Origin: a virus
Taxonomy: Duplodnaviria; Heunggongvirae; Uroviricota; Caudoviricetes
IMG/VR virus record: IMGVR_UViG_2654587792_000008
Span: 1-16,012 of that record
Reading direction: 5' to 3' (one strand)
Length of the DNA stretch: 16,012 nucleotides
Position numbers and translations under genes: made by a program. Below the pieces are notes generated by a model. It searched no databases and was not told where the DNA came from. It saw only the letters and a list, made by a program, of their open reading frames with translations. This document shows, piece after piece, positions 511 to 15,640 of this stretch (its first letter is position 1; every line of letters starts with the position of its first letter).

Positions 511-2410
511 TATGATGGCTGCCGTTTCGGTTGCGCTGCAGCCTCTGGTCAGGGTTGTACCAATGACGGCAGTTGAATGGGCTGATCAAAATTATTATCT
601 GCCTAAAGAATCTTCATATGGTGAGGGAGAATGGAAAACGCTGCCATTCCAGATCGCCATTATGAACTGTATGGGTAACGACCAGGTTCGCACGGTTAAC
701 CTGATTAAATCTGCCCGTGTTGGCTATACAAAGATGTTGCTGGGGGTGGTCGGGTATTTTATTGAGCATAAATCCCGAAACAGTCTGCTTTTTCAGCCCA
801 CGGATTCTGCCGCTGAAGATTTTATGAAGTCTCACGTGGAGGCGACGATTCGGAACGTGCCATGCCTGAAAGACCTTTCCCCATGGCTGGGTCGTAAACA
901 TCGTGACAATACTCTCACGCTGAAACGCTTTTCATCGGGCGTCGGTTTCTGGTGCCTGGGCGGCGCAGCCGCCAAAAACTACCGTGAAAAATCCGTGGAC
1001 GTGGTCTGCTATGACGAACTTTCCTCGTTCGAGCCGGATGTCGAAAAAGAGGGCTCGCCAACCCTGCTGGGGGATAAGCGTATTGAGGGCTCGGTATGGC
1101 CAAAATCCATTCGCGGCTCGACGCCTAAAATCAAAGGCACCTGCCAGATCGAAAAAGCCGCCAACGAGTCGGCGCATTTCATGCGTTTCTATGTGCCCTG
1201 CCCGCACTGTGGGGAGGAGCAGTATCTGAAATTTGGCGATGAGTCCACGCCTTTTGGGCTTAAATGGGAGAAGGACAGCCCTGAAAGTGTTTTCTACCTC
1301 TGTGAACATCATGGCTGCGTGATCCATCAGTCTGAGCTTGACCAGAGCAACGGGCGGTGGATCTGTGAAAACACGGGCATGTGGACCCGTGACGGTCTGA
1401 CGTTTTTCAGCGCCCGGGGTGATGAAATTCCGCCGCCGCGCTCCATCACGTTCCATATCTGGACGGCGTACAGTCCGTTCACCACCTGGGTACAGATTGT
1501 CTATGACTGGCTGGATGCACTGAAAGATCCCAACGGCCTGAAAACCTTTGTGAACACCACGCTGGGCGAGACCTGGGAAGAGGCCGTGGGCGAAAAACTC
1601 GATCACCAGGTACTGATGGATAAGGTGGTGCGTTACACGGCGGCGGTGCCTGCCCGGGTGGTTTATCTGACGGCGGGCATTGACTCGCAGCGAAACCGTT
1701 TTGAGATGTATGTCTGGGGATGGGCACCGGGAGAGGAAGCCTTTCTGGTGGATAAAATCATCATTATGGGCCGTCCCGATGAGGAAGAGACGCTGTTACG
1801 TGTGGATGCGGCGATCAACAAAAAATACCGCCATGCAGACGGAACCGAAATGACCATTTCCCGTGTCTGCTGGGACACCGGGGGGATCGATGGTGAAATT
1901 GTCTATCAGAGATCAAAAAAACACGGTGTTTTCCGGGTGCTGCCGGTAAAAGGCGCATCTGTCTATGGCAAGCCGGTGATCACCATGCCAAAAACCCGCA
2001 ATCAGCGGGGCGTGTATCTGTGTGAAGTGGGAACGGACACCGCAAAAGAAATTCTCTATGCCCGTATGAAAGCCGATCCCACGCCTGCGGATGAAGCCAC
2101 GTCGTATGCCATCCGTTTTCCTGATGATCCGGAGATTTTTTCGCAGACAGAGGCGCAGCAACTGGTGGCGGAAGAGCTGGTGGAGAAGTGGGAAAAAGGA
2201 AAGATGCGTCTGCTGTGGGATAACAAAAAGCGGCGTAACGAAGCGCTGGACTGCCTGGTGTATGCCTACGCGGCATTACGTGTGTCCGTGCAACGCTGGC
2301 AGCTTGATCTGGCTGTACTGGCAAAATCCCGGGAAGAAGAGACGACCCGGCCAACCCTGAAAGAACTGGCAGCGAAGCTGTCCGGAGGAGTGAATGGTTA
2401 CAGTCGCTGA
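482..2410 (+). CDS. A: Terminase large subunit (lambda gpA-like)
   Basis: ORF-track frame 425..2410. Start moved to the in-frame ATG at 482 (MNISEQQ...), matching the recalled lambda gpA N-terminus MNISNSQ. Long conserved blocks shared with recalled gpA include TAVEWAD.NYYLPKES, KSARVGY.KMLLGV, FMRF.V.CPHCGEEQYLKFGD, HIWTAYSPFTTWVQIV, FVNTTLGETWE, SKKHG.FRV.P.KGASVYGKPV and KKRRNEALDC. Confidence 0.93.
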   Translation: MNISEQQLNNMMAAVSVALQPLVRVVPMTAVEWADQNYYLPKESSYGEGEWKTLPFQIAIMNCMGNDQVRTVNLIKSARVGYTKMLLGVVGYFIEHKSRNSLLFQPTDSAAEDFMKSHVEATIRNVPCLKDLSPWLGRKHRDNTLTLKRFSSGVGFWCLGGAAAKNYREKSVDVVCYDELSSFEPDVEKEGSPTLLGDKRIEGSVWPKSIRGSTPKIKGTCQIEKAANESAHFMRFYVPCPHCGEEQYLKFGDESTPFGLKWEKDSPESVFYLCEHHGCVIHQSELDQSNGRWICENTGMWTRDGLTFFSARGDEIPPPRSITFHIWTAYSPFTTWVQIVYDWLDALKDPNGLKTFVNTTLGETWEEAVGEKLDHQVLMDKVVRYTAAVPARVVYLTAGIDSQRNRFEMYVWGWAPGEEAFLVDKIIIMGRPDEEETLLRVDAAINKKYRHADGTEMTISRVCWDTGGIDGEIVYQRSKKHGVFRVLPVKGASVYGKPVITMPKTRNQRGVYLCEVGTDTAKEILYARMKADPTPADEATSYAIRFPDDPEIFSQTEAQQLVAEELVEKWEKGKMRLLWDNKKRRNEALDCLVYAYAALRVSVQRWQLDLAVLAKSREEETTRPTLKELAAKLSGGVNGYSR

Positions 2411-2600
2411 ACTGCAGGCGCTGCGTCAGGCGCGCCTTGATTTATTAACCGGTAAACGGGTGGTGTCTGTCCAGAAAGATGGTCGCAGAATTGAATATAC
2501 GGCGGCTTCTCTGGATGAGCTTAACCGGGCGATCAATGATGCGGAGTCGGTACTGGGGACAACCCGACGTCGCCGTCGTCCGCTGGGAGTGAGGTTATGA
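2394..2600 (+). CDS. W: Head-tail joining / head completion protein (lambda gpW-like)
   Basis: 68-aa ORF with LTGKRVVSVQKDGRRIEYTAASL, matching recalled lambda gpW ([22 protein letters not shown]), which is also 68 aa. Overlaps the terminase stop and the portal start (ATGA overlap at 2597-2600). Confidence 0.9.
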   Translation: MVTVAELQALRQARLDLLTGKRVVSVQKDGRRIEYTAASLDELNRAINDAESVLGTTRRRRRPLGVRL

Positions 2601-4189
2601 AACGAACGCCTGTCCTGATTGATGTGAACGGCGTTCCGCTTCGTGAGAGTCTCAGCTACAACGGGGGCGGCGCAGGATTTGGCGGGCAAATGGCGGAGTG
2701 GTTGCCACCGGCGCAGAGTGCCGATGCGGCCCTGCTGCCCGCGTTGCGTCTGGGGAATGCCCGGGCAGATGATCTGGTGCGCAATAACGGAATAGCGGCC
2801 AATGCGGTGGCCCTGCATAAGGATCACATTGTCGGGCATATGTTTCTGATCAGCTACCGTCCGAACTGGCGCTGGCTGGGGATGCGGGAGACCGCAGCAA
2901 AAAGCTTTGTCGATGAGGTGGAGGCGGCCTGGTCGGAATACGCAGAAGGGATGTCTGGCGAGATCGACGTGGAAGGAAAACGCACATTCACGGAATTTAT
3001 CCGTGAAGGTGTGGGCGTTCATGCGTTTAACGGCGAAATCTTTGTGCAGCCGGTCTGGGATACGGAAACCACGCAGTTATTCCGTACGCGTTTTAAAGCC
3101 GTGAGTCCGAAACGGGTGGACACGCCAGGACACGGTATGGGGAACCGTTTTCTGCGGGCCGGGGTGGAGGTCGATCGATATGGCCGTGCCGTTGCGTACC
3201 ATATCTGTGAGGATGATTTTCCGTTCTCCGGGAGTGGACGATGGGAACGGATCCCGCGTGAACTTCCCACCGGGCGTCCGGCCATGCTGCATATTTTCGA
3301 GCCGGTGGAGGACGGGCAGACCCGTGGGGCCAACCAGTTTTACAGCGTCATGGAACGGCTGAAGATGCTCGATTCCCTGCAGGCAACACAGCTTCAGTCG
3401 GCCATTGTGAAAGCCATGTATGCAGCGACGATTGAAAGTGAACTTGATACCGAAAAGGCCTTTGAATATATCGCCGGCGCGCCACAGGAGCAGAAGGATA
3501 ATCCGCTTATTAATATTCTGGAGAAGTTCTCCAGCTGGTATGACACGAATAACGTGACACTGGGCGGTGTCAAAATTCCGCACCTTTTCCCCGGGGATGA
3601 TCTGAAACTACAGACTGCGCAGGATTCAGACAATGGATTTTCGGCGCTTGAACAGGCGCTGCTGCGGTATATCGCCGCCGGTCTTGGCGTTTCCTACGAA
3701 CAGTTGTCCCGTGATTACTCGAAGGTCAGTTATTCAAGTGCCAGGGCCTCTGCCAATGAGTCGTGGCGCTATTTTATGGGGCGGCGAAAATTTATTGCGG
3801 CCCGGCTGGCCACGCAGATGTTTTCCTGCTGGCTGGAAGAGGCACTTCTTCGGGGGATTATCCGTCCGCCACGGGCGCGTTTTGATTTTTATCAGGCGCG
3901 ATCAGCCTGGTCACGGGCAGAGTGGATTGGTGCCGGAAGAATGGCCATTGACGGGCTCAAGGAGGTTCAGGAATCAGTGATGCGCATTGAGGCCGGACTG
4001 AGCACGTATGAGAAAGAGCTGGCGCTGATGGGCGAGGATTATCAGGACATTTTCCGCCAGCAGGTCAGGGAATCTGCAGAGCGACAAAAAGCCGGACTCT
4101 CACGTCCGGTGTGGATAGCGCAGGCGTATCAGCAGCAGATAGCGGAGAGTCGCAGGCCGGAAGAGGAGACAACACCACGTGAGACGTAA
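2597..4189 (+). CDS. B: Portal protein (lambda gpB-like)
   Basis: 530-aa ORF (lambda gpB is about 533 aa). Conserved blocks include GNARADDLVRNNG.AANA, FEPVEDGQTRGAN.FYSVME, LQSAIVKAMYAATIESELDT, LLRYIAAGLGVSYEQLSR, ARASANESW.YFMGRRKF and GRMAIDGLKEVQE.VM.IEAGLSTYEKE. Confidence 0.93.
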   Translation: MKRTPVLIDVNGVPLRESLSYNGGGAGFGGQMAEWLPPAQSADAALLPALRLGNARADDLVRNNGIAANAVALHKDHIVGHMFLISYRPNWRWLGMRETAAKSFVDEVEAAWSEYAEGMSGEIDVEGKRTFTEFIREGVGVHAFNGEIFVQPVWDTETTQLFRTRFKAVSPKRVDTPGHGMGNRFLRAGVEVDRYGRAVAYHICEDDFPFSGSGRWERIPRELPTGRPAMLHIFEPVEDGQTRGANQFYSVMERLKMLDSLQATQLQSAIVKAMYAATIESELDTEKAFEYIAGAPQEQKDNPLINILEKFSSWYDTNNVTLGGVKIPHLFPGDDLKLQTAQDSDNGFSALEQALLRYIAAGLGVSYEQLSRDYSKVSYSSARASANESWRYFMGRRKFIAARLATQMFSCWLEEALLRGIIRPPRARFDFYQARSAWSRAEWIGAGRMAIDGLKEVQESVMRIEAGLSTYEKELALMGEDYQDIFRQQVRESAERQKAGLSRPVWIAQAYQQQIAESRRPEEETTPRET

Positions 4190-5684
4190 TCTTTCACACA
4201 TTATTGCCGCAGCATTCAATGAACCGCTGCTTCTGGAGCCCGCCTATGCGCGGGTTTTCTTTTGCGCGCTCGGGCGCGAGATGGGGGCATCAAGTCTTTC
4301 GGTACCACAACAGCAGGTACAGTTTGATGCTCCCGGAATGCTGGCTGAAACGGACGAGTACATGGCCGTAGGTAAACGACCGGCCCGTGTTTACCGGGTG
4401 GTGAACGGTATTGCTGTACTGCCGGTGACCGGCACGCTGGTGCACCGGCTGGGGGGTATGCGGCCATTTTCCGGAATGACAGGCTATGACGGCATTGTCG
4501 CCTGTCTTCAGCAGGCAATGGCGGATAGCCAGGTGCGGGGCGTACTGCTGGACATTGACAGTCCGGGCGGGCAGGCCGCCGGCGCGTTTGACTGCGCTGA
4601 CATGATTTACCGCCTCCGTCAGCAGAAGCCGGTCTGGGCACTGTGCAATGACACGGCCTGCTCTGCAGCCATGCTGCTGGCGTCGGCCTGCTCCCGACGG
4701 CTGGTTACCCAGACATCCCGTATCGGCTCCATTGGCGTGATGATGAGCCATGTCAGCTATGCCGGTCATCTGGCGCAGGCCGGTGTGGATATCACGCTGA
4801 TTTACTCAGGGACGCACAAGGTGGATGGCAATCAGTTTGAAGCCTTACCGGCAGAGGTTCGCCAGGACATGCAACAGCGCATTGATGCGGCGCGCCGGAT
4901 GTTTGCCGAAAAAGTGGCGATGTATACCGGTCTGTCTGTTGATGCCGTCACGGGAACAGAGGCCGCCGTTTTTGAAGGTCAGTCCGGCATTGAGGCCGGG
5001 CTGGCGGATGAATTAGTCAATGCGTCGGATGCCATCAGTGTGATGGCCACGGCGCTGAACAGTAATGTCAGAGGAGGCACTATGCCGCAATTAACTGCAA
5101 CGGAAGCCGCCGCGCAGGAGAACCAGCGAGTGATGGGGATCCTGACATGCCAGGAAGCGAAAGGACGTGAACAGCTTGCCACGATGCTGGCAGGACAACA
5201 GGGCATGAGCGTTGAACAGGCCCGGGCGATTCTGGCCGCGGCGGCACCGCAGCAGCCGGTGGCATCCACGCAGAGTGAAGCCGATCGCATTATGGCGTGT
5301 GAAGAAGCGAACGGTCGTGAACAACTGGCGGCAACGCTGGCGGCGATGCCGGAGATGACGGTGGAAAAAGCCCGCCCGATCCTGGCTGCTTCACCGCAGG
5401 CGGATGCCGGACCCTCACTCCGTGATCAGATCATGGCACTGGATGAGGCAAAAGGGGATGAGGCGCAGGCTGAACAGCTGGCTGCCTGCCCGGGAATGAC
5501 TGTGGAGAGCGCCCGGGCTGTGCTGGCTGCGAGATCAGGTAAGGCAGAACCGGTCTCTGCATCCACAACCGCCCTGTTTGAACGCATCATGGCGAACCAT
5601 TCACCGGCAGCGGTACAGGGTGGCGTGCCACAGACGTCAGCAGACGGTGATGCGGACGTGAAAATGCTCATGGCCATGCCATGA
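4179..5684 (+). CDS. C: Head maturation protease / scaffold (lambda gpC-like, S49/ClpP-type peptidase fold) with an expanded C-terminal repeat region; apparent GTG start
   Basis: 501-aa ORF. N-terminus AAFNEPLLLEPAYARVFFCAL matches recalled lambda gpC (MAFNEPLMLEPAYARVFFCAL). Conserved protease-region blocks include NGIAVLPV.GTL, SGMTGY.GI, AGAFDCAD.I, KPVWAL.ND, CSA..LLASA.SRRLVTQT.R.GSIGVMM.H and ITLIYSG.HKVDGN. Codon 4179-4181 is GTG and overlaps the portal stop. Confidence 0.9.
   Translation: MRRNLSHIIAAAFNEPLLLEPAYARVFFCALGREMGASSLSVPQQQVQFDAPGMLAETDEYMAVGKRPARVYRVVNGIAVLPVTGTLVHRLGGMRPFSGMTGYDGIVACLQQAMADSQVRGVLLDIDSPGGQAAGAFDCADMIYRLRQQKPVWALCNDTACSAAMLLASACSRRLVTQTSRIGSIGVMMSHVSYAGHLAQAGVDITLIYSGTHKVDGNQFEALPAEVRQDMQQRIDAARRMFAEKVAMYTGLSVDAVTGTEAAVFEGQSGIEAGLADELVNASDAISVMATALNSNVRGGTMPQLTATEAAAQENQRVMGILTCQEAKGREQLATMLAGQQGMSVEQARAILAAAAPQQPVASTQSEADRIMACEEANGREQLAATLAAMPEMTVEKARPILAASPQADAGPSLRDQIMALDEAKGDEAQAEQLAACPGMTVESARAVLAARSGKAEPVSASTTALFERIMANHSPAAVQGGVPQTSADGDADVKMLMAMP
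5082..5684 (+). CDS. Possible nested in-frame scaffolding protein (lambda Nu3-like) from an internal start within C
   Basis: In-frame ATG at 5082 preceded by GAGGAGG (5071-5077). Lambda expresses Nu3 from an internal in-frame start in the 3' part of C. The product would contain the repeat region. The short 4-nt SD spacer and lack of expression data keep confidence low. Confidence 0.4.
   Translation: MPQLTATEAAAQENQRVMGILTCQEAKGREQLATMLAGQQGMSVEQARAILAAAAPQQPVASTQSEADRIMACEEANGREQLAATLAAMPEMTVEKARPILAASPQADAGPSLRDQIMALDEAKGDEAQAEQLAACPGMTVESARAVLAARSGKAEPVSASTTALFERIMANHSPAAVQGGVPQTSADGDADVKMLMAMP
5125..5684 (+). repeat. Intragenic imperfect tandem repeats (about 140-160 bp period, roughly 3.3 copies) in the C/Nu3 scaffold domain
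   Basis: Protein-level repeats are visible directly: RVMGILTCQEAKGREQLATMLAGQQGMSVEQARAILAAA / RIMACEEANGREQLAATLAAMPEMTVEKARPILAAS / QIMALDEAKGDEAQAEQLAACPGMTVESARAVLAAR / RIMANH... Recalled lambda gpC has a single copy (IMGILNCEEAHGREEQARVLAETPGMTVKTARRILAAA). Confidence 0.75.
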
Positions 5685-5720
5685 AGTCAGTGCTGACCAT
5701 CAACAGGAGGTTTTTACAAT

Positions 5721-6068
5721 ATGGTAACGAAAAACATCACTGAACAGCGTGCGGAAGTACGTATTTTTGCCGGTAATGATCCGGCTCATACCGCCACAGG
5801 CAGCAGCGGGATTTCCTCGGCAACACCGGCACTGACGCCCCTGATGCTGGATGAAGCCAGCGGGAAACTGGTGGTCTGGGACGGACAGAAAGCCGGTAGT
5901 GCAGTTGGCATACTGGTACTGCCGCTTGAAGGCACAGAGACGGTACTGACCTATTACAAGTCGGGGACCTTTGCGACGGAGGCAATCCGCTGGCCTGAAA
6001 GTGTGGATGAACACAAAAAGGCAAATGCCTTTGCCGGCAGTGCCCTGAGTCACGCGGCGCTGCCGTAA
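5721..6068 (+). CDS. D: Head decoration protein (lambda gpD-like)
   Basis: 115-aa ORF with DPAHTAT, TPLMLD, KLV.WDG, AVGIL, YKSGTF and AFAG, matching recalled lambda gpD (about 110 aa). RBS-like AGGAGG upstream at about 5705-5710. Confidence 0.9.
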   Translation: MVTKNITEQRAEVRIFAGNDPAHTATGSSGISSATPALTPLMLDEASGKLVVWDGQKAGSAVGILVLPLEGTETVLTYYKSGTFATEAIRWPESVDEHKKANAFAGSALSHAALP

Positions 6069-6076
6069 CACGTTAT

Positions 6077-6096
6077 CAGGCCACCGCGGTGGCCTG
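6077..6096. other. Perfect 20-nt palindrome (CAGGCCACCGCGGTGGCCTG) in the D-E intergenic region; candidate RNA hairpin
   Basis: Read directly: caggccac-cgcg-gtggcctg, an 8-bp GC-rich stem with a 4-nt loop, between the D stop (6068) and E start (6126). No following U-tract, so not a canonical intrinsic terminator. Confidence 0.35.
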
Positions 6097-6125
6097 ACTG
6101 ATTTCTGAATGAAAGGAACTGATTT

Positions 6126-7154
6126 ATGGGATTGTTTACGACCCGCCAGTTACTCGGTTATACCGAACAAAAAGTGAAATTTCGTGCGCTGTTTCTGGAG
6201 CTGTTTTTCCGCCGTACGGTGAATTTCCATACCGAAGAGGTGATGCTGGACAAAATTACCGGAAAAACGCCGGTGGCGGCCTATGTCTCCCCGGTTGTTG
6301 AAGGAAAAGTGCTGCGTCATCGTGGTGGTGAAACCCGCGTGTTACGTCCGGGCTACGTCAAGCCGAAACACGAATTTAATTACCAGCAGGCGGTTGAGCG
6401 TCTTCCCGGTGAAGATCCGGCTCAGCTGAACGACCCGGCTTACCGTCGTCTGCGTATCATCACTGATAACCTCAAACAGGAAGAGCATGCCATTGTCCAG
6501 GTGGAAGAAATGCAGGCGGTGAATGCCGTGCTGTATGGCAAATACACGATGGAAGGAGACCAGTTCGAGAAAATTGAGGTCGATTTTGGCAGGTCGACGA
6601 AGAATAACATCACTCAGGGTAGTGGTAAGGAGTGGTCAAAACAGGATCGTGACACGTTCGATCCTACACATGATCTTGACCTCTACTGCGACCAGGCCAG
6701 CGGTCTTGTGAATATTGCCATTATGGACGGTACCGTCTGGCGTCTGCTGAATGGCTTTAAATTGTTCCGCGAAAAACTGGATACCCGTCGCGGCTCTAAT
6801 TCGCAACTCGAAACAGCGGTGAAAGACCTGGGCGCGGTGGTGTCCTTCAAAGGGTATTACGGCGATCTGGCCATTGTGGTGGCAAAAACGTCTTATGTGG
6901 CAGAGGACGGTACCGAAAAACGTTATCTGCCTGAGGGCTCGCTGGTCCTGGGGAATACGGCAGCAGAGGGCATTCGTTGCTATGGTGCCATTCAGGATGC
7001 GCAGGCGTTGTCCGAAGGTGTGGTGGCCTCTTCCCGTTATCCGAAACACTGGCTGACGGTAGGGGATCCCGCCCGTGAATTTACCATGACGCAGTCCGCG
7101 CCGCTGATGGTGTTGCCGGACCCGGATGAGTTTGTGGTGGTACAGGTGAAATAA
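6126..7154 (+). CDS. E: Major capsid protein (lambda gpE-like)
   Basis: 342-aa ORF (lambda gpE is about 341 aa). Conserved blocks include PGYVKPKHE, DPAYRR.RII, AI.QVEEMQAV.AVL.GKYTM.G, KLDTRRGSNS.LETAVKDLG, GDPAREFTM.QSAPLM.L.DPDEFV.VQ. Confidence 0.95.
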   Translation: MGLFTTRQLLGYTEQKVKFRALFLELFFRRTVNFHTEEVMLDKITGKTPVAAYVSPVVEGKVLRHRGGETRVLRPGYVKPKHEFNYQQAVERLPGEDPAQLNDPAYRRLRIITDNLKQEEHAIVQVEEMQAVNAVLYGKYTMEGDQFEKIEVDFGRSTKNNITQGSGKEWSKQDRDTFDPTHDLDLYCDQASGLVNIAIMDGTVWRLLNGFKLFREKLDTRRGSNSQLETAVKDLGAVVSFKGYYGDLAIVVAKTSYVAEDGTEKRYLPEGSLVLGNTAAEGIRCYGAIQDAQALSEGVVASSRYPKHWLTVGDPAREFTMTQSAPLMVLPDPDEFVVVQVK

Positions 7155-7162
7155 TCCGTGAG

Positions 7163-7192
7163 CGGGGGCGAAATGCCCCCGTGTCTTTTTTC
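7163..7192 (+). terminator. Candidate rho-independent (probably attenuating) terminator immediately after the major capsid gene
   Basis: Stem CGGGGGC (7163-7169), loop GAAAT, stem GCCCCCG (7175-7181), then T-rich tail TGTCTTTTTTC (7182-7192). A 7-bp all-GC stem plus U-tract, read directly. Confidence 0.65.
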
Positions 7193-7205
7193 ACAGGGGG
7201 ATGAT

Positions 7206-7580
7206 ATGGCAACGAAAGAGCAAAATCTGAAACGGCTTGATGAACTGGCCCTGATTCTGGGGCGTGAGCCGGATATATCCGGGAGTGCCGCAGAGATAGC
7301 GCAGCGGGTGGCAGAATGGGAAGAGGAAATGCAGTCATCCGGCGATGATGTACAGGTTATGAATATGGATATCCGGGAGAGGGAAAACGCGGCTCATGAT
7401 GTTCGTGAGGATACATCCGGTGCGTTAACGCGCATCAGAGTTCTGACCTGCCTCCATCTCTGTGGCATTGATGGTGAAACAGGGGAATCCGTTGAGATTG
7501 CGGATGTTGGTCGGGTGATTCTGATTATGTCCTCAGATGCAAAAACACACGTTGATGGTGGAATGGCTGTTTATGCGTGA
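7206..7580 (+). CDS. FI: Head assembly / DNA packaging accessory protein (lambda gpFI-like)
   Basis: Position between E and FII as in lambda. Start placed at ATG 7206 (MATKEQNLKRLDELA...) with AGGGGG SD at 7195-7200, rather than the ORF-track GTG at 7158 inside the terminator hairpin. Sequence similarity to recalled lambda FI is weak, so the call is mainly by synteny and size (124 aa vs about 132). Confidence 0.7.
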   Translation: MATKEQNLKRLDELALILGREPDISGSAAEIAQRVAEWEEEMQSSGDDVQVMNMDIRERENAAHDVREDTSGALTRIRVLTCLHLCGIDGETGESVEIADVGRVILIMSSDAKTHVDGGMAVYA

Positions 7581-7926
7581 TTTTCAGAATGCCTTTGATG
7601 CCGCCCTTGCCGGGGTGGACAGTACGATTGTTGAAGTGATGGGCATCAGTGCGCAGTTCACCTCCGGTGCACAGCGTGGCGGCGAAGTTCAGGGGGTTTT
7701 TGACGATCCGGAGTCGCTGGGGTTTGCCAGTAGTGGGATCCGTATTGAAGGAAGCAGCCCGTCATTATTTGTGCGGACGGATACGGTTCGTGCCGTGCGG
7801 CGTGGTGACACGTTGACCATTAATGGTGAGACGTTCTGGGTGGATCGTGTTTCTCCGGATGACGGGGGCAGTTGTTATCTCTGGCTGAACCGTGGGCAAC
7901 CACCCGCAGTTAACCGGCGACGATAA
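7573..7926 (+). CDS. FII: Head-tail connector protein (lambda gpFII-like)
   Basis: Start at ATG 7573 (MRDFQNAFDAALAGVD...) gives 117 aa, the same as lambda gpFII. Conserved RGVFDDPE, EGSSPSLFVRTD.VR, RRGDTLTI and FWVDRVSPDDGGSC.LWL.RG.PPAVNRRR. The start overlaps the FI stop (ATGCGTGA). Confidence 0.88.
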   Translation: MRDFQNAFDAALAGVDSTIVEVMGISAQFTSGAQRGGEVQGVFDDPESLGFASSGIRIEGSSPSLFVRTDTVRAVRRGDTLTINGETFWVDRVSPDDGGSCYLWLNRGQPPAVNRRR

Positions 7927-7940
7927 ACGCAGGGTGAATT

Positions 7941-8516
7941 ATGGCGATAAAAGGGCTTGATCAGGCGATTGAAAATCTGAGCCGGGTTCGTAAAAACGCC
8001 ATTCCGTCGGCTTCAGCAATGGCTATTAACCGCGTGGCTACAACGGCGATTAATCAGTCTTCGTCACAGGTTGCCCGGGAGACCAGGGTGAGCCGGAAAC
8101 TGGTAAAGGAACGGTCCAGACTGAAACGGGCGACGGTCAGAAATCCGAATGCCAAAATTATCGTTAACCGCGGTGATCTCCCTGCTATTAAGCTGGGGAT
8201 CAGGATGCTTGGTCATCGTCCGAACAGCATACTTAAAGCCGGTCAGCATCGTTATCAGCGGGCATTCATCCAGCGATTAAATAATGGGCGCTGGCATGTT
8301 ATGCAACGTTTGCCAGAAGCCCGGTATGCGAAGGGCAATGACGATAAAGGAAGGAAAAAGCGTAATCGTCTTCCCATTCAGGTGGTTAAAATTCCGATGG
8401 CGGCCCCACTGAAGCAGGCTTTTGATGAGAACGTTAACCGTATCCGGCGAGAACGTCTGCCAAAAGAACTGGGCTATGCGTTGAAACAACAACTAAGGAT
8501 TGTGATAAAGCGATGA
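7941..8516 (+). CDS. Z: Tail completion protein (lambda gpZ-like)
   Basis: 191-aa ORF beginning MAIKGL.QA.ENLSR with AMAINRVA, SQVARET, RKLVKER.RLKRATV, VNRGDLP.IKLG, NGRWHVMQR and RIRRERLPKELGYAL..QLR.VIKR, matching recalled lambda gpZ (192 aa). Confidence 0.92.
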   Translation: MAIKGLDQAIENLSRVRKNAIPSASAMAINRVATTAINQSSSQVARETRVSRKLVKERSRLKRATVRNPNAKIIVNRGDLPAIKLGIRMLGHRPNSILKAGQHRYQRAFIQRLNNGRWHVMQRLPEARYAKGNDDKGRKKRNRLPIQVVKIPMAAPLKQAFDENVNRIRRERLPKELGYALKQQLRIVIKR

Positions 8517-8908
8517 AACATACTGATATCCGTGCTGCAGTGCTGGATGCACTCGAGCAGCATGAACACGGGGCGACGCTGTTTGATGGTCGCCCCGCTG
8601 TTTTTGATGAGGCGGATTTTCCGGCAATTGCTGTTTATCTCACCGGCGCTGAATACACGGGCGAAGCGCTGGACAGCGATACCTGGCAGGCGGAGCTGCA
8701 TATTGAAGTTTTCCTGCCTGCTCAGGTGCCGGATTCAGAGCTGGATTCGTGGATGGAAAGCCGGATTTATCCGGCGATGAGTGCGATCCCGGCACTGTCA
8801 GGCCTGATTACCACGATGGTTACGCAGGGCTATGAGTATCGTCGTGATGACGATATGGCGTTATGGAGTTCTGCTGATTTGACTTATTCCATTACATACG
8901 AGATGTGA
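8513..8908 (+). CDS. U: Tail terminator protein (lambda gpU-like)
   Basis: 131-aa ORF (lambda gpU is 131 aa) in the canonical position between Z and V; start overlaps the Z stop. Called by synteny, size and general similarity to recalled gpU. Confidence 0.88.
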
Positions 8909-8915
8909 GGACGAT

Positions 8916-9668
8916 ATGCCAACACCAAATCCTCTGGCACCGGTAAAAGGTGCCGGTACCACCCTGTGGGTTTATAACGGTCAGGGTGATGCCTATGCAA
9001 ACCCGTTGTCAGACGATAACTGGCAGCGACTGGCACAGGTAAAGGATCTGACGCCGGGCGAGATGACGGCAGAACCCTACGATGATAACTACCTGGATGA
9101 TGAAGACGCGGACTGGACCGCGACCGGGCAGGGGCAGAAGTCTGCAGGAGATACCAGTTTTACGCTGGCCTGGAAACCGGGAGAAGAAGGTCAGAAAGGG
9201 CTTATAGGCTGGTTTGAAAGCGGGGATGTGCGGGCCTATAAAATCCGTTTCCCGAACGGCACGGTGGATGTGTTCCGTGGCTGGGTCAGCAGTATCGGTA
9301 AGGCCGTAACGGCGAAGGAAGTGATCACCCGTACGGTGAAAGTGACCAACGTGGGTAAACCTTCTGTGGCGGAAGAACGCAGCGAAATTACGCCGGTCAC
9401 TGCGATTAAGGTGACGCCGACATCTGGTACGGTGGCAAAAGGGAAAACAACAACCCTGACGGTTTCTTTTGAGCCGGAAAGTGCAACCGACAAAACGTTC
9501 AGAGCGGTTTCCGCCGATCCGTCAACGGGAACCATTGCTGTGAAAGATATGGCGATCACTGTGACGGGGGTTAAGGCTGGAAAAGTGAGTATCCCCGTGA
9601 TTTCCGGTAATGGTCAGTTTGCCACGGTAGCTGAAGTCACCGTTACTGAAGCGGGCGCTGCAGGGTAA
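8916..9668 (+). CDS. V: Major tail tube protein (lambda gpV-like) with C-terminal Ig-like domain
   Basis: 250-aa ORF. Conserved [86 protein letters not shown] and a C-terminal Thr/Val-rich beta segment (FRAVSAD...SGNG.FA.VAE.TVT) typical of the gpV Ig-like domain. Confidence 0.93.
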
Positions 9669-9681
9669 ACGGAGGTAATAC

Positions 9682-10113
9682 ATGTTTCTGAAAACCGAAC
9701 AATTTGAATATAACGGTGTGTCCGTCACGCTTTCCGAGCTGTCTGCGCTGCAGCGTATCGAGCATCTTGCCCTGCTGAAACGACGGGCAGAACAGGCTGA
9801 AGCCAGCGGTAACCTGCAGGTGAGCGTGGAAGACCTTGTCAGAACCGGCGCGTTTCTGGTGGCGATGTCCCTGTGGCATAACCATCCACAGAAAACGGAG
9901 TCACCATCAATGAATGAGGCTGTGATGCAGATCGAACAGGAGGTGCTCACCACCTGGCCTGCTGATGCCATTGCCCGGGCGGAAGACGTGGTGTTGCGTC
10001 TGTCCGGGATGAGCGGGGCTGTTCATGTGGATACGGATATCACCGAAGTGGCGAAAAATAACGCGCTTACTGATGATGATTTTTCTGCGGGAAAGTCTTC
10101 GACGGCGAGCTGA
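9682..10113 (+). CDS. G: Tail assembly chaperone (lambda gpG-like)
   Basis: 143-aa ORF (lambda gpG is about 140 aa) immediately after V with RBS GGAGGT. Contains the conserved GGGAAAG slippery heptamer near its 3' end. Confidence 0.9.
   Translation: MFLKTEQFEYNGVSVTLSELSALQRIEHLALLKRRAEQAEASGNLQVSVEDLVRTGAFLVAMSLWHNHPQKTESPSMNEAVMQIEQEVLTTWPADAIARAEDVVLRLSGMSGAVHVDTDITEVAKNNALTDDDFSAGKSSTAS
10089..10095 (+). promoter_or_regulatory. Programmed -1 ribosomal frameshift slippery site (G GGA AAG) for G-T fusion
   Basis: GGGAAAG at 10089-10095 lies in the G zero frame as G|GGA|AAG, the same heptamer and register as the lambda G-T site. The downstream -1 frame is open to 10553. Confidence 0.8.
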
Positions 10114-10553
10114 ATTTTGCCCTCAGACTGGCGCGTGAGATGGGGAGGCCTGACTGGCGCGCCATGCTTGCCGGGATGACATCCACCGAATATGCCGACT
10201 GGCGACATTTTTACCGCACGCATTATTTTCAGGATACCCAGCTGGATATGCATTTTTCCGGGCTGATGTACGCTGTACTCAGCCTGTTTTTTTGCGATCC
10301 GGATATGCATCCCTCTGATTTCAGTCTGCTTGTCCCCCGGCATGAGGAAGAGCAGGTGGAGAGGCTGGATGAGGACAAAATGCTGATGCAGAAAGCGGCA
10401 GGACTTGCCGGAGGCGTCCGGTTCGGTGGGGACGGAGGGCGCGATATTTTATCGTCTGCGGATGTGGCGGATGTCATGGTGGATGATGCCGCATTAATGA
10501 TGGCTTCAGCGGGGATTCCAGGAGGTGTGAGATATGTCCCAGCCGGTTGGTGA
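10095..10553 (+). CDS. T: Tail assembly protein T-frame segment (lambda gpT-like), expressed as a G-T fusion by -1 frameshift; no independent start assumed
   Basis: The -1 frame relative to G is open from the slippery site to the stop at 10553, and its 3' end overlaps the H start (10534), as in lambda G/T/H. The ORF-track ATG at 10140 is in this frame. Confidence 0.78.
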   Translation, partial: VFDGELNFALRLAREMGRPDWRAMLAGMTSTEYADWRHFYRTHYFQDTQLDMHFSGLMYAVLSLFFCDPDMHPSDFSLLVPRHEEEQVERLDEDKMLMQKAAGLAGGVRFGGDGGRDILSSADVADVMVDDAALMMASAGIPGGVRYVPAGW

Positions 10554-11160
10554 TCTTATTATTGACCTGAGTCTGGATGCGGTCCGTTTCGATGAGCAGA
10601 TGAGCCGGGTAAGGCGTCATTTTTCAGGACTGGATACTGACGCCAGAAAAACCGCCAGTGCTGTTGAACAGGGCCTGAGCCGCCAGGCGCTGGCTGCACA
10701 AAAAGCCGGGATTTCCGTCGGGCAGTATAAAGCGGCCATGCGAACCCTGCCCGCACAGTTTACGGATATCGCCACGCAGCTTGCCGGTGGTCAGAATCCC
10801 TGGCTGATCCTGCTGCAACAGGGCGGTCAGGTGAAGGACTCCTTCGGCGGGATGATCCCCATGCTCAGGGGGCTTGCCGGTGCGATCACCCTGCCGATGG
10901 TCGGGGTCACCTCGCTGGCGGTGGCGACAGGTGCGCTGGCGTACGCCTGGTACCAGGGGGATTCCACGCTTTCAGCGTTTAATAAAACCCTGGTTCTTTC
11001 CGGTAATCAGTCCGGACTGACTGCCGATCGTATGCTGACTCTCTCAAGAGCCGGGCAGGCAGCAGGGCTGACGTTTAACCAGGCGAGAGAGTCACTGGCT
11101 GTATTGATTCACTTGAAGTACGAAAAAAACCGGGAGGACATTGGATTATTCGGGATCTGA
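10534..11160 (+). pseudogene. H: Tape measure protein gene H, 5' fragment only (about 188 native codons), disrupted by Mu insertion; frame runs 20 codons into Mu before a stop
   Basis: N-terminus VGDL..DLSLDA.RFDEQM.RVRRHFSG ... ALAAQKAGISVGQYKAAMR.LPAQFTD.ATQLAGGQ.PWLILLQQGGQVKDSFGGMIPM.RGLAGAITLPMVG.TSLAVATGALAYAWYQG.STLS.FNKTLVLSGNQ.GLTADRML.LSRAGQAAGLTFNQ matches recalled lambda gpH (853 aa). Similarity ends at about 11099, where the Mu terminus begins. Confidence 0.9.
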
Positions 11161-11271
11161 TGGGATTAGATTTGGTGGGGCTTGCAAGCCTGTAGCGCAA
11201 ATTTTAGTCGTTAATCAATGAAACGCGAAAGATAGTAAAAAATTGCTTTTGTTTCATTGAAAATACGAAAA
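11100..11271 (+). repeat. Mu attL with transposase-binding sites L1 (about 11105-11126), L2 (about 11210-11231) and L3 (about 11250-11271)
   Basis: L1 TGATTCACTTGAAGTACGAAAA and L3 TGTTTCATTGAAAATACGAAAA fit the MuA site consensus TGNTTCAYTNNAAGYRCGAAAR. L2 (TTAATCAATGAAACGCGAAAG) is a weaker match. Spacing corresponds to Mu coordinates 6-27, 111-132 and 151-172. Confidence 0.85.
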
Positions 11272-11437
11272 ACAAAAACACTGCAAATCATTTCAATAAC
11301 AGCTTCAAAAAACGTTCAAAACCGATAACAACCAAGCTGTCACCAAATGACTCATATCACAAATCAGCTTATGCCGTTTAGGTATGTTACATGTGTGATT
11401 ATGTGAGGTGAAGTATGTTTTAGCTGGTTCATGGTTG

Positions 11438-12028
11438 TTATACGGCTTTTTTTACCTCCTGTGGTTCCTGTGAAGGTACTACAACACTTTCCTGTTCATG
11501 AATCCCATACTTTGACAAAATCTCTTTGCGTTTTTCTTCAGGTAATGCATCTAGCATCATCAACGTCTGAATACTTTGCTGTGAAAATCCTATAAAGCTG
11601 TAAAGTTTCTGTTCATTAAATACAAGAGGCATTAACGCCAACAACCCCCCTTTACTTAAAAGTTTCAGTGCCTTGCGTGCTTCATCTGGTTCCAGCTCTT
11701 CAATCATATTGATTAAGGTTGTGGTTAATTTGTTTATCAGTTCCGAAGAATCCTGTTTCTCATTGGCTTGAGCACCAGTATCCGGTGTGGATAACCCCAA
11801 GTGCGCAATAACTTGCTCTCGTTCTTTGGTGGGCATCGACATCACATCGTATTCAACAGCTTTCCCCCCCTTGACACCTTCCTTTTTTCGCTTCGTCCAG
11901 CCTTGAACATTTGCTCGATAGTGAACACCAGCAACAGATCCAGGCATACCATCAGCAGCCATAATTTCTTGCGGCGAACACCAAATTGACTTTTCAGTAT
12001 TATCCTTTTCTATAAAGTTACTTTTCAA
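11438..12028 (-). CDS. c: Mu repressor c
   Basis: 196-aa ORF on the - strand: MKSNFIEK.NTEKSIWCSPQEIMAADGMPGSVAGVHYRANVQGWTKRKKEGVKGGKAVEY..., matching recalled Mu Rep (196 aa). Divergent from ner across the operator region. Confidence 0.95.
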   Translation of the reverse strand: MKSNFIEKDNTEKSIWCSPQEIMAADGMPGSVAGVHYRANVQGWTKRKKEGVKGGKAVEYDVMSMPTKEREQVIAHLGLSTPDTGAQANEKQDSSELINKLTTTLINMIEELEPDEARKALKLLSKGGLLALMPLVFNEQKLYSFIGFSQQSIQTLMMLDALPEEKRKEILSKYGIHEQESVVVPSQEPQEVKKAV

Positions 12029-12197
12029 AATTTAAACCCCTTATTTATCAACGCGTTAATCAGTAATCAAAGGAATTTACCAAAAAGCAGCTTTACAAAA
12101 AGCTTTTCAGTAATTATCTTTTTAGCAAGCTAGCTAAGTTTTTACACTTAGTTAAATTGCTAACTTTATAGATTACAAAACTTAGGAGGGTTTTTAA
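12029..12197. promoter_or_regulatory. Mu early regulatory region: operators O1-O3, IHF site, divergent promoters Pe and Pc, overlapping the transposition enhancer
   Basis: AT-rich 169-bp region between divergent c and ner, about 930-1098 bp from the Mu left end, where these elements lie in Mu. Individual operator boundaries are not resolved here. SD TAGGAGGG precedes the ner ATG. Confidence 0.7.
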
Positions 12198-12425
12198 ATG
12201 TGTTCCAACGAAAAGGCCCGTGATTGGCATCGTGCGGATGTGATTGCGGGACTTAAGAAAAGAAAGCTCTCTTTATCAGCTCTTTCCCGGCAGTTTGGTT
12301 ATGCGCCAACTACATTAGCTAATGCGCTAGAACGACACTGGCCAAAGGGTGAGCAGATTATTGCTAACGCCTTAGAAACTAAACCGGAAGTAATCTGGCC
12401 TAGCCGATATCAAGCAGGTGAGTAA
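12198..12425 (+). CDS. ner: Mu Ner (negative regulator of early transcription; small DNA-binding protein)
   Basis: 75-aa [78 protein letters not shown], matching recalled Mu Ner (75 aa) and its position. Confidence 0.93.
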
Positions 12426-12426
12426 C

Positions 12427-14418
12427 ATGGAACTTTGGGTATCACCGAAAGAGTGTGCGAATCTTCCTGGTTTGCCGAAAACATCGGCTGGTGTGATTTA
12501 TGTTGCTAAAAAGCAAGGATGGCAAAACCGCACTAGAGCAGGTGTCAAAGGTGGTAAAGCAATTGAATACAATGCGAACTCTTTACCTGTTGAAGCGAAA
12601 GCGGCGTTATTGCTGAGACAAGGAGAGATTGAAACAAGCCTGGGGTATTTTGAAATCGCCCGCCCCACGCTGGAAGCCCATGATTATGATCGTGAGGCAC
12701 TGTGGAGCAAATGGGATAACGCCAGCGATTCCCAGCGCAGACTTGCTGAAAAATGGTTGCCTGCGGTTCAGGCTGCAGACGAAATGCTGAACCAGGGGAT
12801 TTCAACGAAAACGGCTTTTGCGACCGTTGCAGGGCATTACCAGGTCAGCGCATCCACTTTGCGGGACAAGTATTACCAGGTACAGAAGTTTGCGAAGCCT
12901 GACTGGGCGGCTGCACTTGTTGATGGACGTGGAGCATCCCGTCGCAATGTTCACAAAAGTGAATTTGACGAGGATGCCTGGCAGTTTCTGATTGCAGATT
13001 ATCTGCGACCGGAAAAACCCGCTTTCCGCAAATGTTATGAGCGTCTGGAACTGGCAGCCCGCGAGCATGGCTGGAGTATTCCCTCCCGTGCCACGGCCTT
13101 TCGCCGGATTCAGCAACTGGACGAGGCAATGGTTGTTGCCTGTCGTGAAGGTGAACATGCACTGATGCATCTGATACCGGCACAGCAGCGAACTGTGGAA
13201 CACCTGGACGCCATGCAGTGGATCAACGGCGACGGTTATCTGCATAACGTCTTTGTACGCTGGTTTAACGGTGATGTGATCCGTCCGAAAACATGGTTCT
13301 GGCAGGATGTGAAAACCCGAAAAATTCTGGGCTGGCGCTGCGATGTGAGCGAGAACATTGATTCAATTCGCCTCTCGTTCATGGATGTTGTGACTCGCTA
13401 CGGTATCCCGGAGGATTTTCACATCACCATTGATAACACCCGTGGTGCTGCGAATAAATGGCTGACGGGAGGCGCGCCCAATCGCTACCGCTTTAAGGTA
13501 AAAGAGGACGATCCAAAAGGGCTGTTTTTACTGATGGGTGCGAAAATGCACTGGACAAGCGTTGTTGCTGGTAAAGGCTGGGGCCAGGCAAAACCTGTTG
13601 AACGTGCTTTCGGTGTTGGTGGGCTTGAGGAATACGTTGATAAGCATCCGGCACTGGCTGGCGCATATACGGGGCCTAATCCGCAGGCAAAACCTGATAA
13701 CTATGGCGACCGCGCTGTTGATGCAGAGCTGTTTCTGAAAACCCTTGCCGAAGGTGTGGCGATGTTCAATGCCAGAACAGGCCGTGAAACAGAAATGTGC
13801 GGAGGCAAACTTTCGTTTGATGACGTTTTTGAGCGTGAATACGCCAGAACGATTGTGCGTAAGCCTACCGAAGAGCAAAAACGGATGCTGTTACTGCCTG
13901 CCGAGGCGGTGAACGTTTCACGCAAAGGCGAGTTTACGCTTAAAGTTGGCGGCTCCCTTAAAGGCGCGAAAAACGTTTATTACAACATGGCGTTAATGAA
14001 TGCCGGAGTGAAAAAAGTTGTGGTCAGATTTGATCCACAGCAGTTACACAGCACGGTTTATTGCTACACCCTGGACGGTCGGTTTATCTGTGAAGCGGAA
14101 TGTCTGGCACCTGTTGCGTTTAATGATGCTGCGGCAGGTCGTGAATATCGCCGCCGCCAGAAACAACTGAAATCTGCGACGAAAGCAGCGATTAAGGCAC
14201 AGAAACAAATGGATGCACTGGAAGTGGCAGAGCTGCTGCCGCAGATAGCCGAACCTGAAGCACCAGAATCACGAATTGTCGGCATTTTCCGGCCTTCCGG
14301 TAATACGGAACGAGTGAAGAATCAGGAGCGTGATGATGAATACGAAACTGAGCGTGATGAATATCTGAATCATTCGCTGGATATTCTGGAACAGAACAGA
14401 CGTAAAAAAGCCATTTAA
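12427..14418 (+). CDS. A: Mu transposase MuA (DDE transposase)
   Basis: Start placed at ATG 12427 ([32 protein letters not shown]...), giving 663 aa, the known MuA length. The ORF-track GTG at 12418 would add 3 residues. Full-length similarity to recalled MuA, including the enhancer-binding N-terminal domain and basic C-terminal region. Confidence 0.95.
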
Positions 14419-14456
14419 TTAACGTTTAAACAAAATTTAATTACGAGGTTATTCAG

Positions 14457-15395: not shown

Positions 15396-15410
15396 GAAGG
15401 AGAAGAAATT

Positions 15411-15638: not shown

Positions 15639-15640
15639 CG

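What the first reader, a model, noticed from the sequence alone, without database searches (positions are those of the whole stretch)
7155..7205. Strong intrinsic-terminator-like hairpin directly after the major capsid gene, inside the late operon
CGGGGGC-GAAAT-GCCCCCG followed by TGTCTTTTTTC lies 9 nt after the E stop and just before the FI RBS and ATG. Tail genes downstream must still be transcribed from the same late promoter, so this would have to act as a partial terminator or stability element that raises capsid-gene mRNA relative to downstream genes, or be overridden by Q-type antitermination. It also argues against the GTG 7158 start that the ORF track gives for FI.
Basis: seen in the sequence. 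Interest (0 to 1): 0.45.

Follow-up and report, generated by a model that had tools for sequence, protein, structure and literature searches.

The report
Terminator-like hairpin after capsid gene
A short, very stable RNA hairpin followed by a run of U sits in the gap after the major capsid gene of this phage-21-like prophage. Equivalent hairpins occupy the same gap in lambda, phi80 and many relatives, so it is a real but ordinary kind of element whose exact job has never been measured.

Summary
A 7-bp all-G:C stem (7163-7169/7175-7181, 8 pairs with G7162·U7182), a GAAAU loop and the tail UGUCUUUUUUC lie in the 51-nt gap between the E-type capsid gene (stop 7152-7154) and FI (ATG 7206). It is the only site of this quality in the window on either strand. 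About 1% of shuffles contain one.

The window is a phage-21-like late operon, and the junction is almost identical in phage 21 itself.

Lambda, phi80/HK225 and prophages from Providencia, Kluyvera, Citrobacter, Klebsiella and Aeromonas all carry a G+C hairpin at this position. The stem sequences differ but stay complementary (96.6% canonical pairs across 21 variants). GenBank records for phi80 and HK225 already call theirs rho-independent terminators. A second conserved hairpin sits in the D|E gap.

The GTG-7158 start for FI is refuted by an in-frame stop, a frameshifting indel and a lost GTG in relatives.

Most likely it terminates RNA polymerase that lacks Q. Q-loaded polymerase reads through, and the folded hairpin then stabilises the capsid-gene message. 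That function is inferred, not shown.

It is a new member of a known kind, of low interest.

The parts
6126..7154 (+). Major capsid protein gene (lambda E / phage 21 gene 7 homologue), with stop TAA at 7152-7154
   Evidence: ORF list. 96% DNA identity to phage 21 gene 7. 61% amino-acid identity to lambda E.
7162..7182 (+). RNA hairpin. 5' arm CGGGGGC 7163-7169, loop GAAAU 7170-7174, 3' arm GCCCCCG 7175-7181, plus an optional G7162·U7182 pair
   Evidence: -17.3 kcal/mol, z = -4.24. The identical hairpin was found 119 times in IMG/VR, always in the same E|FI context.
7183..7192 (+). U-rich tail GUCUUUUUUC, with the U6 run at 7186-7191. This is the expected release site for RNA polymerase lacking Q, and a possible single-stranded RNase E entry site
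   Evidence: The tail is conserved, or lengthened to U7, in 21-type relatives. A different but still U-rich tail (UUUUUCAUUC) occurs in the diverged L169 variant.
7158..7194 (+). Optional outer helix GUGA (7158-7161) / UCAC (7191-7194) enclosing the hairpin. It is present in the predicted minimum-energy fold only
   Evidence: Its conservation was not tested.
7195..7200 (+). Shine-Dalgarno sequence of FI (GGGGGA), 5 nt before the ATG
   Evidence: A ribosome-binding site is annotated at the equivalent place in phage 21 records.
7206..7580 (+). FI (DNA-packaging chaperone) gene, with the true start at ATG 7206
   Evidence: Pfam Packaging_FI, E = 4e-17, model position 1 at residue 3. The GTG-7158 frame is broken in relatives. 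RefSeq gpFI starts at the equivalent ATG.
6076..6097 (+). Partner hairpin in the D|E gap: UCAGGCCAC-CGCG-GUGGCCUGA, with a weak U-rich tail CUGAUUUCUG
   Evidence: Second-ranked site in the scan. -18.4 kcal/mol, z = -4.08. A hairpin at this position is conserved in the lambda family and is annotated as a terminator in HK225.
5721..6068 (+). Head decoration protein gene (lambda D / phage 21 shp homologue)
   Evidence: Pfam HDPD, E = 4e-24. Phage 21 annotation.

Best explanation
The element is a terminator-type RNA hairpin at the 3' end of the major-capsid cistron, and it works in two modes.

Mode 1: RNA polymerase without the phage Q antiterminator. This covers stray transcription in the lysogen, or polymerases that failed to load Q. 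For these the hairpin plus U run acts as an intrinsic terminator, with release around 7186-7192.

Mode 2: Q-loaded polymerase, which transcribes the whole late operon from one promoter. Q prevents the hairpin from forming in the RNA exit channel, so most polymerases continue into FI and the tail genes. The hairpin then folds in the finished RNA. After endonucleolytic cleavage downstream, for which the U-rich single-stranded tail is a plausible entry point, it blocks 3'-to-5' exonucleases. The D-E part of the message therefore outlives the downstream part, and the two most abundant virion proteins get more template.

The D|E hairpin does the same for the D cistron.

Shown: the hairpin's existence, rarity, orientation, non-coding status, fixed position, and maintenance of pairing across many diverged relatives.
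Inferred: termination, read-through and stabilisation.
For: - **The site is unique and well folded.**
- **It is strand-specific.** The T run lies only 3' of the stem on the gene strand.
- **It lies in one of only two sizeable intergenic gaps of the head-tail region.** These are D|E at 57 nt and E|FI at 51 nt, and both flank E.
- **The position is strongly enriched for hairpins.** 19 of 22 distinct lambda-like loci have a perfect hairpin (at least 6 bp, at least 5 G:C) within 45 nt after the E stop. The background expectation is about 6%.
- **Pairing is maintained while sequence changes.** 21 different hairpins keep 96.6% canonical pairs, yet arms from different classes pair at only 1-6 of 7 positions. 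Within the 21 type there is a G-C, then G·U, then A-U series at one pair.
- **Distant relatives have it too, often without a U tract.** Five of six distant E-family phages (about 30% identity) have a G+C hairpin after the capsid gene. Several relatives lack a U tract: phi80 type, Cedecea, Enc34, Salvo, ZRG1 and K242. The hairpin itself, not termination competence, is therefore the common denominator.
- **The D|E site argues against heavy termination.** In the lambda type it is a canonical terminator (GCCGC-N4-GCGGC-U7), yet E, which lies downstream of it, is needed at least as abundantly as D. Heavy termination there would be counter-productive, so read-through is expected.
- **The read-through mechanism is known.** Q21 forms a nozzle on the RNA exit channel that prevents terminator hairpins from forming, over tens of thousands of nucleotides (bioRxiv 10.1101/651190; the same for lambda Q, PMC9388147).
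- **The nearest intact relative has a Q gene upstream on the same strand**.
- **Terminators can raise upstream mRNA stability.** This is the subject of PMC11696848 (abstract only).
Against: - I could find or retrieve no RNA 3'-end, half-life or coverage data for this junction in any lambda-family phage.
- The U-rich tail is conserved within the 21 type, and is even improved in some loci. A pure exonuclease barrier would not need that. This points to real termination events.
- The title of Sampson et al. 1988 (PNAS 85:5439, seen only as a reference) attributes lambda late-gene ratios to translation initiation. From memory, that paper found roughly even mRNA along the operon. Any mRNA-level effect may therefore be small.
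- The hairpins without U tracts in distant phages could be unrelated features, or terminators of a looser type.
Confidence: 0.5

Rival explanations
1. True attenuator. A fixed fraction of late-operon polymerases, including Q-loaded ones, terminates here. FI, FII and the tail genes are therefore transcribed less than the capsid genes. The mechanism would be the one measured for T7 Tphi and the PhiX174 TJ/TF/TG terminators.
For: - The site has canonical terminator anatomy and orientation.
- The U-rich tail is conserved or strengthened within the 21 type and is present in most enterobacterial relatives.
- T7 has its only phage-polymerase terminator right after capsid gene 10, with a drop in reads downstream (PMC6938266).
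- The PhiX174 terminators, including TF after the capsid gene, stop only 20-40% of transcription (bioRxiv 10.1101/2020.03.05.979765).
- The phage L paper lists partial termination as one possible role for the terminator after the procapsid module (PMC8022706).
Against: - Q-loaded polymerase is described as termination-deficient, because hairpins cannot form in the nozzle.
- The lambda-type D|E site is an even better terminator. It would cut transcription of E itself, which is needed in more than 400 copies per head.
- Many relatives have the hairpin without a usable U tract.
- The U run here is offset from the stem by UGUC, and the rough score is borderline.
Confidence: 0.25
2. Fail-safe insulator only. 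The hairpin matters solely for polymerases that lack Q, such as read-in or spurious transcription in the lysogen or before Q acts. It keeps head-completion and tail genes silent and has no effect on expression ratios during lytic growth.
For: - The terminator anatomy.
- Q makes late transcription blind to such signals.
- The phage L paper names stopping spurious transcription that lacks antitermination as a possible role for intra-operon terminators (PMC8022706).
Against: - An insulator could sit at any gene junction. Here the hairpins sit specifically on both sides of the capsid gene across very diverged phages.
- Relatives whose hairpin has no U tract would be poor insulators.
Confidence: 0.15
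3. Translation device for FI. The structure either hides the FI Shine-Dalgarno sequence, or brings the E stop next to the FI start so that FI translation is coupled to, or damped relative to, E.
For: In some junctions (HK225/phi80 type, Kluyvera, Citrobacter, L199) the minimum-energy fold pairs CUUCC just after the E stop with the FI GGAG. In this window UCC pairs weakly with GGG.
Against: Across 19 junctions the Shine-Dalgarno sequence is no more paired than in shuffled controls. Mean unpaired probability is 0.34 observed against 0.24 shuffled, and no junction falls in the lower tail. In the window the value is 0.51. The pairing partner differs from phage to phage.
Confidence: 0.05
4. The hairpin is coding sequence: the N-terminal 16 codons of an FI protein that starts at GTG 7158.
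For: The GTG-7158 frame is open into FI in this window and in phage 21.
Against: - There is an in-frame TAA in the loop of the L169/L170 variant.
- Seven loci carry a +1 indel.
- Seven loci have GTG replaced by GGG.
- Single-base indels occur inside the hairpin in several loci.
- The Pfam FI model starts at the ATG-7206 protein.
- All curated records start FI at the ATG, which has its own ribosome-binding site.
Confidence: 0.01
5. Chance palindrome or neutral leftover with no function.
For: The 76-nt frame has an unremarkable folding z-score of -0.92. No Rfam family matches.
Against: About 1% of shuffles contain such a site anywhere in 16 kb, and here it falls in a 51-nt gap. Hairpins at this position are conserved and keep their pairing across diverged hosts and phages.
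Confidence: 0.03

Closest known systems
E|FI junction hairpins of phi80 and HK225, annotated in GenBank as rho-independent terminators, and the unannotated equivalent in lambda (7165-7182 of NC_001416)
   Same: They occupy the same position: directly after the E-type capsid gene stop and before the FI ribosome-binding site. The architecture is the same: a 7-bp G+C-rich stem, a 4-5 nt loop and a pyrimidine-rich tail. The operon context is the same.
   Different: The stem and loop sequences are unrelated. Here they are CGGGGGC/GAAAU, against AUGGCCC/UUCG in lambda and GUGGCCC/UGUC in phi80, and the arms are not cross-complementary. The 21-type tail has a cleaner U6 run than lambda (UGUUUCUCUG) or phi80 (CUUUCUGG). 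The correspondence is by position and shape, not by alignable sequence.
T7 Tphi, the terminator immediately after major capsid gene 10
   Same: It is a single hairpin terminator placed right after the most highly expressed structural gene. Essential downstream structural genes depend on read-through, and transcript abundance drops downstream (PMC6938266).
   Different: Tphi acts on the phage's own single-subunit RNA polymerase, and no antiterminator is involved. In this window the host polymerase is expected to carry Q, which suppresses hairpin-dependent termination.
PhiX174 leaky terminators TJ, TF, TG and TH
   Same: These are weak rho-independent terminators placed after capsid and structural genes inside one transcription stream. 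They create nested mRNAs and graded dosage, and 20-40% termination has been measured for TJ, TF and TG.
   Different: PhiX174 has no antitermination factor and multiple promoters. The efficiencies there have been measured, whereas nothing has been measured here.
Intra-late-operon terminator after the procapsid module of P22-like phage L
   Same: It is a predicted rho-independent terminator inside a single-promoter, Q-type antiterminated late operon, at the end of the capsid gene block. [quoted passage not shown]
   Different: The capsid gene family is different (P22 gp5, not lambda E) and so is the neighbouring gene.

Membership tests
Intrinsic (Rho-independent) terminator | G+C-rich stem of about 5-14 bp with a 3-8 nt loop | tested here: met
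   7 G:C pairs plus one G·U pair, with a 5-nt loop. -17.3 kcal/mol.
Intrinsic (Rho-independent) terminator | U-rich tract of about 7-9 nt immediately 3' of the stem | tested here: inconclusive
   8 of the 11 nt after the stem are U, but the first four are UGUC and the U6 run starts 5 nt from the stem. The d'Aubenton-Carafa-type score, using a formula recalled from memory, is borderline at -5 to +6. The combined pattern is nevertheless rare, at 1% of shuffles.
Intrinsic (Rho-independent) terminator | Orientation matches the direction of transcription, and the site lies in non-coding sequence after a stop codon | tested here: met
   The T run is present on the + strand only. The stem begins 8 nt after the E stop. 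The GTG-7158 frame is not conserved as coding.
Intrinsic (Rho-independent) terminator | Produces RNA 3' ends and releases polymerase at the U tract | not testable with these tools
   No transcript data are available, and literature searches found none for this junction.
Post-capsid-gene leaky terminator (T7 Tphi, PhiX174 TF, P22/L type) | Directly downstream of the major capsid gene, with essential genes further downstream in the same transcription unit and no intervening promoter | tested here: met
   Gene order and strand. No promoter-like site between 7155 and 7205.
Post-capsid-gene leaky terminator (T7 Tphi, PhiX174 TF, P22/L type) | Measured partial read-through that sets the ratio of capsid mRNA to downstream mRNA | not testable with these tools
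   This needs RNA-seq, Term-seq or in vitro transcription.
Lambda-family E|FI junction hairpin | Hairpin in the gap between the E homologue and the FI homologue | tested here: met
   (19 of 22 distinct loci).
Lambda-family E|FI junction hairpin | Sequence homology of the hairpin to the lambda or phi80 element | tested here: not met
   MAFFT places the 21-type stem out of register with the lambda type. Arms of the two classes pair at about 3 of 7 positions. The element is therefore a positional and structural analogue, possibly replaced rather than diverged.
Q-antiterminated lambdoid late operon (context) | Q gene, pR' and a Q-binding element upstream on the same strand | not tested
   These lie outside the window. 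The closest intact relative (E. coli C3, 98.9% identity over 1-11099) has an annotated antitermination protein Q about 7.4 kb upstream of the terminase genes on the same strand.
3' mRNA-stabilising hairpin | Stable stem-loop at the 3' end of the protected cistron | tested here: met
3' mRNA-stabilising hairpin | Hairpin-dependent increase in the half-life of the upstream segment | not testable with these tools
   This needs a decay time course in wild type and stem mutants.
Curated RNA family (Rfam 15) | Match to a covariance model | tested here: not met
   No hit at or near 7155-7205 at E <= 1.

The most novel reading that the evidence does not exclude
The two hairpins that bracket the capsid gene (D|E and E|FI) are not primarily terminators. 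Together they define a processed, unusually long-lived capsid-gene mRNA segment inside a Q-antiterminated operon. This would be a post-transcriptional dosage device conserved across the whole lambda-E capsid family, including phages whose hairpins have no U tract.
Probability: 0.25. Interest if true: 0.5.

Novelty: new member of a known kind. Interest (0 to 1): 0.25.

Why it matters
Lambdoid late operons are textbook single-promoter units about 25 kb long, read by terminator-resistant polymerase. Even so, they keep terminator-shaped hairpins on both sides of the capsid gene. Published genome papers say the roles of such intra-operon terminators are unknown (PMC8022706).

Showing what they do would fill a small gap in how phages set the roughly 400:1 ratios between virion proteins. 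The options are attenuation, mRNA stabilisation or fail-safe silencing.

It would also help people who engineer lambda-type phages or use these junctions as parts.

For annotation, the practical result is that FI starts at ATG 7206, not GTG 7158.

Tried and rejected

- The Rfam scan of the whole window at E <= 1 found nothing at the site.
- The folding z-score on a 76-nt frame was unremarkable. Only tight frames are significant.
- Two related-loci runs with single proteins returned only near-identical relatives. Diversity came from a protein alignment searched against one genome per species and from tblastn against phage records.
- Many 'hits' in unrelated genera (Chromatium, Kitasatospora, Neobacillus and others) are probably plain lambda DNA. 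Loci whose junction was identical were counted once.

**Analyses that had to be redone or carry a caveat**
- MAFFT could not put the different hairpin classes in register. I therefore did not use the count of structure pairs, and counted pairs on arms extracted by exact pattern.
- The terminator d-score uses a formula recalled from memory and current energy parameters. I use it for ranking only.

**Ideas tested and rejected**
- The hairpin or its flanks occlude the FI Shine-Dalgarno sequence: rejected by shuffled controls.
- The hairpin is a mobile or repeated cassette: rejected, because all 119 exact copies in IMG/VR are in the same E|FI context.
- RNase III site: unlikely on general knowledge, because the stem is only 8-9 bp.

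**Literature that could not be retrieved**
- Sampson et al. 1988, Liu et al. 2013 and Casjens & Hendrix 2015 are not held.
- No paper with 3'-end or coverage data for this junction was found in ten searches.

Full report
**What is in the sequence.** The E-type major capsid gene ends with TAA at 7152-7154. Eight nucleotides later a perfect seven-pair G:C stem begins: CGGGGGC 7163-7169 pairing with GCCCCCG 7175-7181, around the loop GAAAU. G7162·U7182 can add a wobble pair. The stem is followed by UGUCUUUUUUC (7182-7192). Next come the FI Shine-Dalgarno sequence GGGGGA (7195-7200) and the FI ATG at 7206. The mechanical ORF list does start the FI frame at GTG 7158.

**Is it more than chance?**
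- The consensus scan ranks this site first of 22 terminator-like sites in the window. The second-ranked site is a hairpin in the D|E gap at 6076-6097.
- A stricter scan of my own asked for at least 7 contiguous pairs, at least 6 G:C and at least 7 T in 10. It finds only this locus on either strand, and 1% of 300 dinucleotide shuffles contain such a site.
- The hairpin alone folds at -17.3 kcal/mol, z = -4.24. A loose 76-nt frame gives only z = -0.92.
- The T run is on the + strand only.
The one caveat is that the U run is offset from the stem by UGUC, so a rough terminator score is borderline (formula from memory).

**What the window is.**
- Positions 1-11099 are the late region of a phage-21-like prophage. 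They are 96% identical to phage 21 across the junction and 98.9% identical to a prophage of E. coli C3.
- In that intact relative the order is Q antiterminator, tRNAs, lysis genes, terminase, portal, protease, D, E, FI, FII and tail genes, all on one strand.
- The junction in phage 21 differs from this window's at a single base just before the FI start (GGGGGC for GGGGGA), and neither phage 21 record annotates the hairpin.
- From 11100 onwards the window is the left end of a Mu-like phage inserted in the tape-measure gene. This is unrelated to the finding.

**Where FI starts.** The GTG-7158 extension is not coding.
- In the nearest diverged variant (E. coli ECMA0423 and Shigella flexneri SFBU1023) the hairpin loop supplies an in-frame TAA.
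- Seven IMG/VR loci have a +1 indel between GTG and ATG.
- Seven others have GGG instead of GTG.
- Single-base indels occur inside the hairpin.
- The Pfam FI model begins at residue 3 of the ATG-7206 protein.
- Curated records start at the ATG.
- FI is therefore 7206-7580. FII starts at 7573 and overlaps the FI stop (ATGCGTGA).

**Relatives.**
- Lambda has AUGGCCC-UUCG-GGGCCAU followed by UGUUUCUCUG in the same gap. phi80 and HK225 have GUGGCCC-UGUC-GGGCCAC. Aeromonas phage PhAER-1 has a 12-16 bp hairpin followed by a U-rich tail.
- The phi80 and HK225 GenBank records annotate theirs as rho-independent terminators. HK225 also annotates the D|E site.
- A search of one genome per species gave prophages from Providencia, Phytobacter, Kluyvera, Trabulsiella, Citrobacter, Enterobacter, Klebsiella, Buttiauxella, Pluralibacter, Cedecea and Aeromonas. 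Nearly all have a G+C hairpin within a few nucleotides of the E stop.
- 19 of 22 distinct loci have a perfect hairpin (at least 6 bp, at least 5 G:C) within 45 nt of the stop, against about 6% expected from the density elsewhere in the same loci.
- Across 21 different hairpins 96.6% of stem positions are canonical pairs. Arms of different classes pair with each other at only 1-6 of 7 positions.
- Within the 21 type, one pair runs G-C, then G·U, then A-U across loci.
- Five of six distant E-family phages (about 30% identity: Enc34, Vibrio K242, Xylella Salvo, BcepNazgul, Pseudomonas ZRG1) also have a strong hairpin after the capsid gene, mostly without a U tract.
- The exact 21-type hairpin occurs 119 times in IMG/VR, always in this context, so it is not a mobile repeat.

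**The partner site.** The D|E gap also carries a conserved hairpin. The lambda type is a textbook terminator, GCCGC-N4-GCGGC followed by seven U, with freely varying loops. The 21 type is UCAGGCCAC-CGCG-GUGGCCUGA. D|E and E|FI are the only sizeable intergenic gaps in the head-tail region. The capsid gene is thus bracketed by hairpins.

**How it most likely works.**
- Q21 and lambda Q form a nozzle on the RNA exit channel that prevents terminator hairpins from forming, and they stay on the polymerase for tens of thousands of nucleotides. Late transcription should therefore pass this site.
- That is required in any case, because the tail genes have no promoter of their own. It is required even more strongly at the lambda D|E terminator, which precedes E itself.
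- Once the polymerase has passed, the hairpin can fold. A stable hairpin at the 3' end of a cistron is the classic barrier to 3'-5' exonucleases (established knowledge of E. coli mRNA decay).
- The hairpin persists in relatives that lack a U tract. This fits an RNA-level role better than a purely transcriptional one.
- For polymerase without Q, the element should act as an ordinary terminator.
- I therefore favour a two-mode element, with confidence 0.5.
- The main rival is a true attenuator that stops a fraction even of Q-loaded polymerases (0.25). The conserved U run and measured precedents in T7 and PhiX174 support it.
- A fail-safe-only role is possible (0.15) but does not explain the fixed position around the capsid gene.
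- A role in FI translation was tested and not supported.
- Coding and chance readings are excluded for practical purposes.
- The title of Sampson et al. 1988, and my recollection of that paper, warn that mRNA-level effects in lambda may be modest.

**Comparison with what is known, and novelty.** This is a known kind of element: a terminator-shaped hairpin directly after the major capsid gene inside a late transcription unit.
- It has been measured in T7 and PhiX174.
- It is annotated in phi80 and HK225.
- For P22-like phage L it is discussed as common, with roles 'not known'.
- The 21-type hairpin is a positional and structural counterpart of the lambda one without alignable sequence. In that sense it is a new member of a known kind.
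- The comparative result goes a little beyond the annotations. That result is two pairing-maintaining hairpins bracketing E across the family, with the hairpin conserved more widely than the U tract.
- It does not change the picture. Interest is low (0.25).

Noticed in passing
window 11100-16012: The 21-like prophage sequence ends at 11099. From 11100 (TGTATTGATTCACTTGAAGTACGAAAAAAA...) the window is the left end of a Mu-like phage: a repressor c-like gene (11438-12028, minus strand), a Ner-like gene (12198-12425), MuA transposase (12418-14418) and MuB (14457-15395). The insertion truncates the tape-measure gene, leaving an ORF at 10534-11160 with only the N-terminal TMP_2 domain.
   Followed up: partly
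window 6076-6097: A second strong hairpin, UCAGGCCAC-CGCG-GUGGCCUGA (-18.4 kcal/mol, z = -4.08), lies in the D|E gap, 7 nt after the D stop. A hairpin at this position is conserved in the lambda family. The lambda type is a canonical terminator with a U7 tail.
   Followed up: partly
window 7573-7580: The FII start ATG (7573) overlaps the FI stop TGA (7578-7580) as ATGCGTGA. This suggests translational coupling of FII to FI. The ORF list instead offers an upstream ATG at 7537.
   Followed up: no
window 10089-10095: GGGAAAG lies near the end of the G-like gene (9682-10113), just before the T-like ORF (10140-10553). This is the expected lambda-type G/GT -1 frameshift site.
   Followed up: no
L207 (Cedecea sp. 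S5-13), E|FI gap: This relative has the hairpin UUCAGGGC-UUCG-GCCCUGAA with the T run upstream (AATTTTTT) rather than downstream. It would look like a terminator only on the opposite strand.
   Followed up: no
L173-L188 and other genome-contig loci: Contigs assigned to unrelated organisms carry a capsid gene and junction that match lambda's. Examples are Chromatium, Kitasatospora, Neobacillus, Paenibacillus, Leeuwenhoekiella and Pseudomonas, often at about 48.4 kb or with coverage near 1. This is most likely lambda DNA contamination of those assemblies.
   Followed up: no
window 6900-7327 versus the PhiR5/PhiR12 phages: Several phages match at about 90% identity only up to window position 7327, inside FI, and then diverge. 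This is a mosaic boundary within FI rather than at the hairpin.
   Followed up: no
L164 (phi80 FN582354) 1140-1174: The phi80 record annotates a -35/-10 promoter and a transcription start in the D|E gap, just upstream of the capsid gene. No comparable promoter-like site was found in this window's D|E gap.
   Followed up: no
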